The position numbers and the translations under genes are program-made. 64,000 bases of DNA, taken from sequence record OR896820.1; one strand, 5' to 3'. This document shows, piece by piece, positions 3,232 through 38,911 of the stretch (positions are counted from its first letter, which is position 1; the number at the start of each line of letters is the position of its first letter). A model generated the notes under the pieces. That model saw nothing but the letters and a program-made list of their open reading frames with translations. It did no database searches and had not been told where the DNA came from. The DNA is from Escherchia phage Stokescottia.

Positions 3232-4122
3232 TTATACCAAATCTTTAAGCGATTCAGCAACTAAAATTTCAATACGTTTTGCTAACATATCAATTTCTTC
3301 TTTATTTAAGTCACCAGGGTCTTTACCTTCAGGCAGAAGAAAGTTAGCAACTACAGGTGTTAAACGCGTTTTTGTACGAATTAGCTTGGCCAACGCTTGT
3401 GCAGCTTTGTTACCAGAAGCATCATTATCTAGTAAGATAACAACAACTTTTACACCAGCAATAATATAAGGACTGAACTTATCTGCAATGTTATCCGAAG
3501 TAAACTGATGTGTACCAAAGCAGCAAGAAGCATAGTCTATACCATTATCCTCTAGGTTCAGCATATCAAAGATACCTTCAACTAGAATAAGAACTGGAGT
3601 ATTATATCGTACAGGGAAAATCGGTGGTGAAACTTGCTTTGGTTTTACTAAGTATTTAGGAGGGGCAGAACTGTTTATAGAACGACCCAAAAATAGGATA
3701 TTGCGTCCAACAGCATCTGTGATTGGGAATACAATTCTGCCTTCCCAGTCTGCTTGGTGTTGGAAAGCAAAATATTTCTTCAAGGTCTTAGAACTTATAC
3801 CTCGGAAATCACCTTCGAAAAGGTAAGCAGATTCAGGAATTGCAAGATTCGTAGATCCATTCCTAATCTCTGAAATCTTTTTACGTACCTGCGATAGTCT
3901 TGGGGACTGTCGGTACTGAGTCTCATTAAAATAATGGTAAATGCTCGGTATACCTTTACCGAAGCCACAACTCAAGCAGTGCATAATACCTGTTTCAGGA
4001 TCAATACGCAAACTTGGGTGTTTATCGTCATGATCTGGATTGAGACAACAGATGAGGATGTCCCCACCTGTGTCTTTATATTCAATGCCTTTCAGATCAA
4101 GTAGTTCTGTTATTCTACTCAT
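3232..4122 (-). CDS. DNA primase (zinc-binding N-terminus plus Toprim domain)
   Basis: 296 aa; N-terminal CxxH...CxxC zinc motif (CCLNPDHDD...HCLSCGFGKG); Toprim-like LVEGIFDMLNLED...LLDNDASG. Confidence 0.75.
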   Translation of the reverse strand: MSRITELLDLKGIEYKDTGGDILICCLNPDHDDKHPSLRIDPETGIMHCLSCGFGKGIPSIYHYFNETQYRQSPRLSQVRKKISEIRNGSTNLAIPESAYLFEGDFRGISSKTLKKYFAFQHQADWEGRIVFPITDAVGRNILFLGRSINSSAPPKYLVKPKQVSPPIFPVRYNTPVLILVEGIFDMLNLEDNGIDYASCCFGTHQFTSDNIADKFSPYIIAGVKVVVILLDNDASGNKAAQALAKLIRTKTRLTPVVANFLLPEGKDPGDLNKEEIDMLAKRIEILVAESLKDLV

Positions 4123-33000: not shown

Positions 33001-33224
33001 ATATTCATAAATTAGGGAACAGCGAGCCGATTACGCTGAGTGCAGAATCCCAACCGGAGCGCATTGAATAGAGTCGGTGGGTTAGTTGTAAAACTAGTAC
33101 ACAGGGGGCGGCAATTCCGGTTAGTGGCTAGAACGTGTAAAATGAGGCGTCTGAAACCTCTCCCCTAAACTCTTCTCTAATTTATAAATAGTGGGGTGTG
33201 GAAATCACTTATGTAGTAACACTG

Positions 33225-33295
33225 CCGTCCTAGTATAATTGGTATTATCAAGCCGTAACTGGTGGAAGATGTAGGTTCGAATCCTACGGTCGGTA
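33225..33295 (+). ncRNA. degenerate tRNA-like element
   Basis: Canonical T-arm GTAGG TTCGAAT CCTAC but no canonical acceptor or anticodon stems. Confidence 0.25.
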
Positions 33296-36812: not shown

Positions 36813-36841
36813 TTGCTTGAATGCTAAATTCTCTGTATAAT
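36813..36841 (+). promoter_or_regulatory. early-type promoter
   Basis: TTGCTT, 17-nt spacer, TGTATAAT, then CTATAAATTTGAGAGAGG box. Confidence 0.6.
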
Positions 36842-36871
36842 ATATCTATAAATTTGAGAGAGGAACCAAAT

Positions 36872-37390
36872 ATGAATGTTGATGAGCTAACACAGCACCT
36901 CTTATCTAGAGGATTTGATACAGATAAATATCATTGCTGGTTAAGTCCGGAAGGGTGGCTAACAGTCCCGTTGTATGATTTCTCTGGAATGTTGAGGGGC
37001 TATCAAACTTATAATCCTTCTGCTCCAAAAGGTCATGGTAAGTGCCCCTTTGAAGCTAAATACTTTACTTATTCTACTACACAGTGTGTATGGGGACTAG
37101 AAACTCTCAATGGGGATGAAAAAGTAGTATTGATTGCTGAATCTGTATTTAAGGCAGTTGCATTACATAATGCTGGTTATCCAGCCCTAGCAATGTTAGG
37201 TTCTTCTCCAGGAAAAGCGTTATTAAAGCAACTGAAATTACTACCCTTTAAATTGGTAGCTGTCGGGGATAATGATCCTGCGGGTGAAAAATTTGCTAGA
37301 AAATTAAACGGCTTTGTTTCTCCCGTAGATGTGGATGAGATGTCTACCGAAAACTTGAAAAATTTTCTTGCTATGAAGCTAAATTTCTAA
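36872..37390 (+). CDS. Toprim-domain protein
   Basis: 173 aa; Glu in LIAESVF and DxD in VGDNDPAG suggest a Toprim fold. Confidence 0.45.
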   Translation: MNVDELTQHLLSRGFDTDKYHCWLSPEGWLTVPLYDFSGMLRGYQTYNPSAPKGHGKCPFEAKYFTYSTTQCVWGLETLNGDEKVVLIAESVFKAVALHNAGYPALAMLGSSPGKALLKQLKLLPFKLVAVGDNDPAGEKFARKLNGFVSPVDVDEMSTENLKNFLAMKLNF

Positions 37391-37396
37391 TATAAT
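37367..37396 (+). promoter_or_regulatory. early-type promoter driving the tRNA island
   Basis: TTGCTA, 18-nt spacer, TATAAT; overlaps the 3' end of the Toprim ORF; tRNA-Ser begins ~16 nt after the -10. Confidence 0.55.
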
Positions 37397-37411
37397 ATAT
37401 CTTATAAATTC

Positions 37412-37500
37412 GGAAGAATAGCATAACGGTATTGCAGCAGATTGCTAATCTGTCGGTTTGAAATATAGCCTTGTGGGTTCGATTCCCACTTCTTCCGCCA
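37412..37500 (+). tRNA. tRNA-Ser(GCT)
   Basis: Acceptor GGAAGAA/TTCTTCC, anticodon loop TTGCTAA, long variable arm, encoded CCA. Confidence 0.7.
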
Positions 37501-37505
37501 AATTT

Positions 37506-37583
37506 GGTTCTCAAGCTCATATGGTATGAGCACCCGGCTCATAACCGGAAGGTACGTAGGTTCGAATCCTCGGGGAGCCACCA
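37506..37583 (+). tRNA. tRNA with CAT anticodon (Met or Ile2)
   Basis: Acceptor GGTTCTC/GGGAGCC, D-stem GCTC/GAGC, anticodon loop CTCATAA; T-stem imperfect. Confidence 0.55.
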
Positions 37584-37799: not shown

Positions 37800-37985
37800 A
37801 TGTCTAAGTTTCAAGAACTCAAGCAAGAGCTAGAAGAATGTGCCTGCCCTGAGTGTAGGGGAATTGGTGAAAGTTCTGATGCAGAAGCAGGAGATACTTT
37901 TTGCAATATCTGGGTTTGCCCAAATTGCAAGGGTACAGGTATTAATCCTAACTGCGGTATTTCCCTAGATATTGAACGAGGATAA
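37800..37985 (+). CDS. hypothetical zinc-ribbon-like protein
   Basis: 61 aa with CxxC...CxxC (CACPECRG...CPNCKG). Confidence 0.4.
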   Translation: MSKFQELKQELEECACPECRGIGESSDAEAGDTFCNIWVCPNCKGTGINPNCGISLDIERG

Positions 37986-38338: not shown

Positions 38339-38545
38339 ATGGCTAATCCTGAAATTACCGCACAACGTTTCATGCTTAAAGGTATGATTGCTGAGGCGGG
38401 TATAACTCAAGAGGTTGCAGATTTTCATAAGCAATTTCTTGATATTATAACTCTAGCTAAAGAGACTGGAGAAAAAGAGCACGGAGCAGCAATTATGGCT
38501 ATATCTCTTATTAGTCTAGACTTGGCTGAAGAATCTGGAGTTTAG
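38339..38545 (+). CDS. hypothetical protein
   Basis: 68-aa ORF. Confidence 0.35.
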   Translation: MANPEITAQRFMLKGMIAEAGITQEVADFHKQFLDIITLAKETGEKEHGAAIMAISLISLDLAEESGV

Positions 38546-38635: not shown

Positions 38636-38911
38636 ATGCAAAATCGTGTTATAGCTGCTGGTATTGAAAGTGCAATCTGTAAATCCTGGGAAGGCTGGGA
38701 AGGTGAGATTGAATGGCTTTATTTCTACGATGTAGAACTTCTGCCGGAAATTAAAGCTAAATGTATTGAAGCTGGCATGGCTCCAGATGCAAAAGCTGAT
38801 ATTGATATTTCAATGTCTGAACTTAAAGGTCGTGTAATCACTGTTAGTGATGAGGGCGAAGAAGTTTTTGAACTTCCGTTCTCCTTAACTGTCACTCCTA
38901 AGTTCGACTAA
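38636..38911 (+). CDS. hypothetical protein
   Basis: 91-aa ORF. Confidence 0.4.
   Translation: MQNRVIAAGIESAICKSWEGWEGEIEWLYFYDVELLPEIKAKCIEAGMAPDAKADIDISMSELKGRVITVSDEGEEVFELPFSLTVTPKFD

What the first reader, a model, noticed from the sequence alone, without database searches (positions are those of the whole stretch)
36872..37500. Toprim-domain ORF fused to the entry promoter of the tRNA island
The promoter at 37367-37396 lies inside the last codons of a Toprim-like ORF and tRNA-Ser begins only ~16 nt after its -10 element. Toprim domains occur in primases, topoisomerases and RNA-processing nucleases, and this position invites the hypothesis of a tRNA-processing or tRNA-repair nuclease. 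That is speculative.
Basis: inference. Interest (0 to 1): 0.45.

Follow-up and report, generated by a model that had tools for sequence, protein, structure and literature searches.

The report
T5 anti-retron gene rad (T5.076)
The ORF is the phage T5 gene T5.076, already reported as the retron inhibitor Rad/ORF75: a small primase-like protein wedged between two known T5 early promoters at the start of the tRNA-rich region, and nothing indicates that it processes tRNA.

Summary
A 172-aa ORF (36872-37390) carries a Toprim domain. A near-consensus sigma-70 promoter (-35 at 37368-73, -10 at 37391-96) overlaps its last codons, and tRNA-Ser(GCU) starts 16 nt after the -10.

All of this is already annotated in T5-like phages: the ORF is T5.076 ("ORF trn 2.1, putative DNA primase-related protein") and the promoters are P15a and P15b. 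The window ORF is 188/189 identical to the 189-aa "DNA primase" CDS of phage SP15, which I equate with the published ORF75/Rad, the determinant that lets T5-like phages evade retrons Eco2 and Eco7. How it does so is unresolved.

The tRNA-nuclease idea fails its own test:
- The viable deletion strain T5st0 lacks the gene.
- Phage Bas26 carries an NAD-salvage cassette in the same slot, still followed by a promoter and tRNA-Ser.
- Guernseyvirinae homologues (one checked over 37 kb) sit in regions with no annotated tRNA genes.

The gene lies in the tRNA region because that region is an accessory counter-defence island. Verdict: real, correctly observed, already known. The open question is mechanism.

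The parts
36813..36841 (+). Promoter P15a, the ORF's own T5 early promoter: -35 TTGCTT 36813-18, 17-nt spacer, -10 TATAAT 36836-41
   Evidence: Read from the sequence. Annotated as promoter P15a at the homologous place in T5 and phage 5. Almost identical upstream of a different gene in GreteKellenberger. Missed by the consensus scan because the -35 matches only 3 of 6.
36856..36864 (+). Ribosome-binding site GAGAGAGGA, 7 nt before the ATG at 36872
   Evidence: Sequence. A ribosome-binding site is annotated at this place for ORF trn 2.1 in AJ604531.
36872..37390 (+). rad / T5.076 / ORF trn 2.1 (equated here with SP15 ORF75): 172-aa primase-like protein without a zinc-binding domain, stop codon included
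   Evidence: 100% identical to SSP1 and phage 5, 97% to T5. 188/189 identical to the 189-aa SP15 CDS. Published loss-of-function residues R13, P33, I88, D135 and E156 fit this numbering.
36872..37120 (+). Residues 1-83: N-terminal subdomain of the DnaG-type catalytic core (HLxxRG helix, TxPL strand, GYQxY, K/R63-Y64)
37121..37351 (+). Residues 84-160: Toprim domain with E90, D133-x-D135 and D153/D155/E156
   Evidence: Pfam Toprim_2. Profile alignment to E. coli and Aquifex DnaG motifs EGxxD and DGDxAG. E90, D133, D135 and D153 are at least 90% conserved in 90 homologues.
37368..37396 (+). Promoter P15b, the entry promoter for tRNA-Ser3/tRNA-Ile2: -35 TTGCTA inside codons 166-167, -10 TATAAT 1 nt after the stop codon
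   Evidence: 10 of 12 matches. Annotated as P15b in T5 and phage 5. Conserved across T5-like phages and present in GreteKellenberger behind a different ORF.
37412..37500 (+). tRNA-Ser(GCU), T5 tRNA-Ser3
   Evidence: ARAGORN; Rfam 60.5 bits.
37506..37583 (+). tRNA with anticodon CAU (T5 tRNA-Ile2), second gene of the P15b unit
   Evidence: Rfam 40.3 bits at 37506-37580. Missed by ARAGORN. Annotated as tRNA-Ile2 in T5 and phage 5.

Best explanation
The ORF is rad (T5.076; I equate it with SP15 ORF75). It is an early, dispensable counter-defence gene of T5-like phages. Its product is a 172-aa minimal DnaG-type primase catalytic core: the N-terminal subdomain plus Toprim, without the zinc-binding and helicase-binding domains.

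Shown elsewhere by experiment: expressed alone, it restores plating of T5n and SP15m on cells carrying retron Eco2 (Ec67) or Eco7 (Ec78). In the preprint only, it also counters Ec83, Ec48 and Se72.

Inferred mechanism: because these retrons have different effectors, Rad must hit what they share, which is the msr-msd ncRNA, the msDNA or the reverse transcriptase. The conserved Toprim metal site (E90, D133, D135, D153/E156) most likely performs phosphoryl-transfer chemistry on the retron nucleic acid. The preprint reports loss of ncRNA and msDNA, so no functional msDNA-RT-effector complex would form.

Gene organisation (sequence plus annotation): P15a transcribes rad. There is no terminator before the tRNAs, so this transcript reads into tRNA-Ser/tRNA-Ile2. 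P15b, whose -35 is encoded in the unconserved C-terminal tail of Rad, adds more tRNA transcription and would leave a leader of about 8-9 nt for RNase P to remove (the leader length is inferred). The position beside tRNAs reflects a shared counter-defence island rather than a biochemical link to tRNA.
For: Identity: 188/189 to the 189-aa SP15 CDS, the only primase/Toprim ORF in the stretch of the SP15 tRNA-rich region inspected. The paper describes Rad as 189 aa with primase/helicase and TOPRIM domains, and its mutated residues R13, P33, I88, D135 and E156 all match the window protein. Two homologues named in the paper match directly: vB_Sen_I1 is 97.7% identical and the Proteus phage Privateer protein is a top structural match.

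Dispensability and island: the ~8.5-kb T5st0 deletion removes the gene, and AY692264 is the strain called T5n.

Fold and motifs.

Promoters and absence of a terminator.

Accessory status: the same genome has a full DnaG-like primase, pri, at 3232-4122, next to a DnaB-like helicase.
Against: The ORF75 = this gene equation rests on length, domain description, position and residue numbering; I did not see the authors' ORF table. The 'degrades ncRNA' claim appears only in the preprint and was dropped from the Nature Communications version, which says the mechanism cannot yet be determined. No nuclease activity is known for a DnaG-type catalytic core, and the fold and the K/R63-Y64 motif suggest nucleotide polymerisation instead. 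Single catalytic-site mutants only partly lost activity. ORF75 did not help T5 against the FORC 82 type I-A retron. Distant relatives sit in replication modules or are fused to CCA-adding enzymes, so the family may not have a single function.
Confidence: 0.8

Rival explanations
1. One reading: a Toprim nuclease that processes or repairs the phage's tRNAs (5'/3' maturation or repair of cleaved tRNA).
For: The gene sits 21 nt upstream of tRNA-Ser. Homologues lie inside tRNA clusters in Proteus phage 2 (tRNA-Lys 10 nt after the stop) and in Salmonella phage Arash. In Vibrio phage F101 the homologue overlaps the end of a CCA-adding enzyme gene. Metagenomic proteins fuse the module to a complete CCA-adding enzyme (P0269). 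RNA ligase genes lie within 2-7 kb in two large-phage contigs. 24 of 75 IMG/VR loci have tRNAs within 10 kb.
Against: T5st0/T5n lacks the gene and is viable with its remaining tRNAs. Plasmid-borne phage tRNA-Tyr works without Rad. GreteKellenberger has other genes in the slot. Guernseyvirinae homologues sit in regions with no annotated tRNA genes. In the IMG/VR loci the nearest tRNA is usually more than 2 kb away and 51 of 75 have none. The fold is a primase core, not RNase M5. No control for the background density of tRNA genes was possible.
Confidence: 0.05
2. An accessory primase or RNA polymerase. The protein would synthesise short RNAs on single-stranded DNA, either in phage replication or repair (possibly borrowing a zinc-binding domain in trans) or on retron msDNA, with the anti-retron effect following from that polymerase activity.
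For: It has the complete DnaG catalytic-core fold and conserved motifs, including K/R63-Y64 aligned to the primase KY motif. Only primases are hit in the PDB by profile search. In Guernseyvirinae the gene's start overlaps the end of an SNF2 helicase gene in the PolA/VRR-NUC module. Databases call it 'DNA primase'.
Against: It lacks the zinc-binding domain, which from established T7 gp4 and DnaG biochemistry (my knowledge) is needed for template-directed priming, and it lacks any helicase-binding domain. The genome already has pri. The gene is dispensable. The preprint reports loss of ncRNA rather than new RNA.
Confidence: 0.12
3. A non-catalytic binder or decoy. The primase-like cleft would sequester msDNA, ncRNA or the retron reverse transcriptase without performing chemistry.
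For: Single mutations of catalytic-type residues (D135H, E156H) reduced activity only slightly. Motif IV position 94 is D in 45 and K in 34 of 90 family members, and K in T5.
Against: E90, D133, D135 and D153 are at least 90% conserved across a family of 441 or more clusters, which argues for a working metal site. Double mutants abolish activity. ncRNA and msDNA levels fall.
Confidence: 0.1

Closest known systems
Rad / ORF75 of Escherichia phage SP15; T5.076 of phage T5 (Azam et al. 2023 preprint; Nat Commun 2024)
   Same: 99% identical protein in the same position, immediately upstream of tRNA-Ser in the ~8-kb tRNA-rich region deleted in T5n/T5st0. The residues mutated in the paper are present.
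   Different: Nothing of substance. The 189-aa database start (window 36821) lies inside promoter P15a. The 172-aa form is the one supported by the ribosome-binding site, by homologues and by the paper's own residue numbering.
DnaG-type primase catalytic core (bacterial DnaG, T7 gp4 primase fragment, T4 gp61, Twinkle)
   Different: No zinc-ribbon domain, no C-terminal helical subdomain and no helicase-binding domain. Only 15-25% identity. Dispensable, and it coexists with the phage's real primase. The reported function is anti-retron rather than priming.
MG010-type truncated DnaG paralogues (NCBIfam TIGR00646)
   Same: A stand-alone DnaG-like protein without a zinc finger; weak hit E=3e-4 over residues 22-148.
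   Different: The score (20 bits) is far below the family cut-off (260 bits), so this is not a member. It is a cellular protein of unknown function.
RNase M5 and other Toprim nucleases (OLD, GajA, AriB of PARIS)
   Different: In RNase M5 the Toprim is N-terminal and is followed by a different C-terminal domain. There is no ATPase partner. In PADLOC only a DnaG-like module of a defence reverse transcriptase matches, and no OLD, Gabija or PARIS model does.

Membership tests
Toprim domain | Conserved glutamate plus DxD motif on a Rossmann-like four-strand core | tested here: met
   Pfam Toprim_2 above the curated cut-off. E90 and D133-N-D135 are conserved. The Toprim fold is matched in RNase M5, topoisomerases and DnaG.
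DnaG-type primase | Catalytic core: N-terminal alpha/beta subdomain packed against the Toprim domain | tested here: met
DnaG-type primase | N-terminal CHC2/Cys4 zinc-binding domain for template recognition | tested here: not met
   The protein starts at the first helix of the catalytic core. There is no Cys/His cluster and no zf-CHC2 hit. PHROG 849 matches only profile positions 146-337 of 435.
DnaG-type primase | C-terminal helicase-interaction domain or fused helicase | tested here: not met
   The protein ends about 12 residues after motif VI.
DnaG-type primase | Template-directed oligoribonucleotide synthesis | not testable with these tools
   Needs a biochemical assay.
Rad (retron anti-defence) / SP15 ORF75 | Sequence identity to the characterised protein and presence of the functionally tested residues | tested here: met
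   188/189 identity. R13, P33, I88, D135 and E156 are present.
Rad (retron anti-defence) / SP15 ORF75 | Location in the tRNA-rich / anti-defence region deleted in T5n and SP15m | tested here: met
   The T5st0 (AY692264 = T5n) deletion spans T5p067-T5p078, and there is no tblastn hit across the deletion joint.
Rad (retron anti-defence) / SP15 ORF75 | Neutralises retron defence when expressed | not testable with these tools
   Taken from the literature only.
RNase M5-type Toprim ribonuclease | N-terminal Toprim followed by a C-terminal substrate/uL18-binding domain | tested here: not met
   The Toprim is the C-terminal half here. Only 87-105 residues align.
OLD/Gabija/PARIS-type Toprim nuclease | ABC-ATPase domain or partner, or a DUF4435-type Toprim | tested here: not met
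   The only PADLOC hit is the DnaG-like part of a defence reverse transcriptase. No ATPase gene is adjacent.
T5 early sigma-70 promoter (P15a/P15b) | -35 TTGCTx, 17-nt spacer, -10 TATAAT, A/T-rich upstream region, conserved ATATnT(n)ATAAATT start region | tested here: met
   annotated in curated records. Promoter activity itself was not tested here.

The most novel reading that the evidence does not exclude
The Rad family (441 or more clusters at 50% identity) would be a general RNA-directed enzyme built on a primase core. It would act on structured RNA ends and not only on retron ncRNA. In some phages it would work together with, or fused to, CCA-adding enzymes (P0269; Vibrio phage F101), HAD phosphatases and RNA ligases to rebuild or remodel tRNA-like 3' ends damaged by host defence nucleases. 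On this reading the repeated placement in tRNA clusters (T5-like phages, Novosibvirus, Arash) would be functional rather than incidental.
Probability: 0.1. Interest if true: 0.65.

Novelty: already known. Interest (0 to 1): 0.25.

Why it matters
The gene, both promoters and the anti-retron phenotype are already on record, so the finding itself adds nothing new. Two things are worth keeping.

First, Rad's mechanism is officially unresolved. The structure comparison shows that it is a complete DnaG-type primase catalytic core stripped of its DNA-recognition and helicase-docking domains, and not merely 'a Toprim/RNase domain'. That narrows the mechanistic hypotheses to nuclease, polymerase on msDNA, or binder, and it names the residues to mutate.

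Second, most databases still label the gene 'DNA primase', and the SP15 record starts it 17 codons too early, inside its own promoter. Both are annotation errors that can be corrected.

Tried and rejected
- Single-sequence phmmer against the PDB gave only noise (xylanases). The 90-sequence profile was needed to reach DnaG.
A 12-sequence sub-alignment worked.
- A neighbour census of 75 IMG/VR loci found a metallopeptidase-like protein, GIY-YIG, a GNAT-like protein, Metallophos and AAA_33 kinases. No coherent replication or tRNA theme emerged. This samples only the clade closest to that sub-alignment.
- tRNA proximity in those loci (24 of 75 within 10 kb; 12 of 28 full-length loci) could not be evaluated, because no whole-contig control was available. 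I do not count it as evidence either way.
- I looked for a separate primase-type zinc-ribbon ORF nearby, as described for jumbo phages. The 61-aa ORF at 37800-37985 is a CxxCxGxG-type finger with only sub-threshold Pfam hits, so I do not treat it as a partner.
- The idea that T5.076 is the T5 nicking enzyme was rejected. The argument rests only on my recollection that T5st0 DNA still carries the nicks, and was not tested.
- Literature searches for 'T5.076' and for T5-like/tRNA region/primase found nothing useful. The link came from searching 'anti-retron'.
- I did not check whether GreteKellenberger encodes a homologue elsewhere in its genome.

Full report
**What the window is.** The 3 kb around the finding is 97-98% identical to T5-like phages (Tequintavirus: Salmonella phage HMD-P5, Shigella phage SSP1 and others). 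The window is oriented opposite to the T5 reference and carries the T5 tRNA region: 21 tRNAs by ARAGORN, plus two further tRNA hits from Rfam that ARAGORN missed.

**Checking the observation.**
- The mechanical ORF list gives 36821-37390 (189 aa). The ATG at 36872 is preceded at 7 nt by GAGAGAGGA. All distant homologues begin there.
- The 36821 ATG lies between the -35 (36813-18) and -10 (36836-41) of the upstream promoter, so a transcript from that promoter would not include it.
- The real product is therefore 172 aa (36872-37390).
- It hits Pfam Toprim_2 above the curated threshold (E=2.2e-5, residues 88-149) and PHROG 849 'DNA primase' (E=2.5e-62, profile positions 146-337 of 435).
The -35 is coded by Leu166-Ala167, the stop codon (37388-90) lies in the spacer, and the -10 begins 1 nt after the stop.
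- tRNA-Ser(GCU) begins at 37412.
- The consensus scan alone is not above chance (4 found, 5.7 expected). However, curated T5 (NC_005859) and phage 5 (AJ604531) records annotate exactly this site as promoter P15b and the upstream one as P15a, and the sequence is near-identical across T5, SSP1 and phage 5.
The ORF is T5.076, 'ORF trn 2.1; putative DNA primase-related protein'.

**What the protein is.**
- A profile of 90 homologues hits only DnaG primases in the PDB (E. coli E=2e-6; Aquifex; S. aureus).
- The AlphaFold2 model is very confident (pLDDT 96.2, pTM 0.91).
- Foldseek agrees: the top 36 PDB hits are all primase catalytic domains, with query-normalised TM 0.73 to E. coli DnaG and 0.69 to T7.
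- hhalign places residues 27-169 on residues 127-284 of the phage's own replicative primase at 96% probability. K63-Y64 falls on its PKY motif, ESVFK on EGIFD, and DNDPAG on DNDASG.
- Across the family the following are at least 86% conserved or invariant: H9, L10, R13, G43, Y47, P49, K/R63, Y64, G75, E90, F93, D133, D135, G138 and D153. Motif IV position 94 is D in 45 and K in 34 of 90 sequences; T5 has K.
- The protein is therefore a complete but minimal DnaG-type catalytic core. It has no zinc-binding domain, no C-terminal helical subdomain and no helicase-binding region.
- The same genome has a conventional DnaG-like primase (window 3232-4122, minus strand; T5 pri, T5.121) next to a DnaB-like helicase. 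T5.076 is therefore an accessory paralogue and not the replicative primase.

**Dispensability and the cargo slot.**
- T5st0 (AY692264) is a viable deletion strain. Its annotated recombination joint links T5p066 to T5p079, about 8.5 kb is missing, and tblastn finds no trace of the ORF across the joint.
- In Epseptimavirus GreteKellenberger (Bas26), P15a is almost unchanged but drives an NMN adenylyltransferase, a PnuC transporter and a 98-aa ORF. tRNA-Ser then follows, preceded by its own TTGCTT/17 nt/TATAAT promoter.
- The ORF is therefore exchangeable cargo between two conserved promoters, and the 'fusion' of P15b to its 3' end is a by-product of compaction. The last residues of the protein are unconserved and of lower model confidence.
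- No terminator-like site lies between the ORF and the tRNAs. P15a transcripts should therefore read into tRNA-Ser, and RNase P cleavage would define the mRNA 3' end. This last step is inferred.

**Family and contexts.**
- An exhaustive HMMER search finds 441 representative clusters (E<=1e-3), mostly stand-alone proteins of 165-190 aa.
- Guernseyvirinae (47-49% identity): the gene's start overlaps the end of an SNF2 helicase gene in a PolA/VRR-NUC module. In the Kagunavirus JSSK01 a separate primase-helicase is annotated. No tRNA genes are annotated in the regions inspected (37 of 44 kb of JSSK01; 10.5 kb of Jerseyvirus SI1).
- Proteus phage 2 (Novosibvirus, 38% identity) and Salmonella phage Arash (41% identity): the gene lies inside tRNA clusters.
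- Vibrio phage F101: the gene overlaps the end of a CCA-adding enzyme gene.
- Erwinia jumbo phages: the gene is split into two overlapping ORFs.
- Metagenomic proteins fuse the module to a full CCA-adding enzyme, a HAD hydrolase, Arr-like ADP-ribosyltransferases, ParB_N, a DUF3268 zinc finger or Mom.
- Of 75 IMG/VR loci, 24 have a tRNA within 10 kb, but the nearest is usually more than 2 kb away. Recurrent neighbours show no single theme.
- These contexts leave a weak tRNA or RNA-end association in some lineages. They show no obligatory link.

**The decisive literature link.**
- Azam et al. (bioRxiv 10.1101/2023.03.15.532788) found that an ~8-kb region lost in T5n and SP15m contains SP15 ORF75. 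They named it Rad (retron anti-defence): '189 amino acids ... primase/helicase and TOPRIM/RNase domain'.
- Expressed alone, it rescues the deletion phages from retrons Ec67, Ec78 and Ec83, and rescues lambda vir from Ec48 and Se72. It lowers msDNA and msr-msd RNA but not the reverse transcriptase or effector mRNA.
- It is weakened by R13E, P33T, I88T, D135H or E156H and abolished by double mutants.
- The SP15 genome (NC_048627) has a 189-aa 'DNA primase' CDS immediately upstream of tRNA-Ser. It is 188/189 identical to the window ORF.
- All five mutated residues match the 172-aa numbering. In the 189-aa SP15 form residue 13 is K, so the authors' numbering is that of the 172-aa protein.
- T5n is AY692264, the T5st0 record analysed above.
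- I did not see the authors' ORF table, so the equation of ORF75 with this CDS is a strongly supported inference.
- The peer-reviewed version (Nat Commun 2024) keeps ORF75 as the determinant of Eco2 and Eco7 evasion but states that its mechanism cannot yet be determined.
- The five mutations map onto DnaG-type elements: the HLxxRG helix (R13), the TxPL strand (P33), the strand leading to E90 (I88), the DxD motif (D135) and acidic motif VI (E156).

**Mechanism.**
- Shown here: identity, fold, conserved metal site, dispensability and promoter arrangement.
- Shown by others: the anti-retron phenotype.
- Inferred: Rad works against retrons with unrelated effectors (RT-Toprim, PtuAB and others), so it must target the shared RT/ncRNA/msDNA core. 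The conserved Toprim acidic cluster argues for catalysis.
- I favour metal-dependent attack on the msr-msd RNA or the RNA-DNA intermediate, as the preprint suggests. I rate that step at only about 0.4, because it was withdrawn from the published paper and a DnaG core has no known nuclease activity.
- The main alternatives are primase-like RNA synthesis on msDNA or ssDNA, and non-catalytic sequestration.

**Verdict.** The specific tRNA-processing or tRNA-repair hypothesis is not supported and fails its own refutation test. The feature is already known. The remaining interest lies in Rad's unresolved mechanism and in the family's unexplained fusions and contexts.

Noticed in passing
window 37506-37583 (+): A tRNA with anticodon CAU (T5 tRNA-Ile2) is found by Rfam (40.3 bits) but missed by ARAGORN. 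It lies 6 nt after tRNA-Ser and belongs to the same P15b unit.
   Followed up: partly
window 33224-33295 (+): A tRNA-like Rfam hit (35.5 bits) is not called by ARAGORN. It falls where T5 annotates the 719-nt stable 'RNAX' of unknown function, upstream of tRNA-Arg.
   Followed up: no
window 36821-36871 (+); SP15 NC_048627 35930-36499: The 189-aa database start of Rad lies inside the spacer of promoter P15a and has no ribosome-binding site. The 172-aa form fits the RBS, the homologues and the published mutant numbering, so this is probably an annotation error.
   Followed up: yes
L096 (Escherichia phage GreteKellenberger) 5666-7803: The slot between P15a and the tRNA-Ser promoter holds an NMN adenylyltransferase, a PnuC transporter and a 98-aa ORF instead of rad. 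It looks like a swappable cargo slot for candidate counter-defence genes. I did not check whether rad occurs elsewhere in that genome.
   Followed up: partly
L094 (Erwinia phage Alexandra) 4989-5252 and 5239-5502: In Erwinia, Dickeya and Serratia jumbo phages the sampled Rad homologues (7 listed rows; 57 Erwinia records matched in all) align as two pieces. In Alexandra these are two overlapping ORFs in different frames. This could be a conserved frameshift, recoding or a pseudogene.
   Followed up: no
P0269, P0098, P0095, P0022, P0096, P0063, P0092, P0103; L006 3703-5537: Metagenomic proteins fuse the Rad module to a complete CCA-adding enzyme, a HAD hydrolase, Arr-like ADP-ribosyltransferases, ParB_N, a DUF3268 zinc finger or Mom. 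In Vibrio phage F101 the homologue overlaps the 3' end of a CCA-adding enzyme gene.
   Followed up: partly
window 37800-37985 (+): A 61-aa ORF with two CxxCxGxG motifs (DnaJ-type zinc finger) is labelled 'antitermination protein Q-like' in RefSeq. Pfam gives only sub-threshold hits (Zn_ribbon_TFIIB, Anti-TRAP).
   Followed up: partly
window 38339-38545 and 38636-38911 (+): By gene order relative to SP15, these small ORFs (68 and 91 aa) probably correspond to SP15 ORF72 and ORF71. The preprint says these are jointly needed to neutralise retron Ec83, although its text and figure legend disagree on the ORF numbers.
   Followed up: no
L005 3577-5513; L007 15519-17455: In Guernseyvirinae the Rad homologue's start codon overlaps the stop of an SNF2-family helicase gene within the PolA/VRR-NUC replication module. 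This context is quite different from the T5 one.
   Followed up: partly
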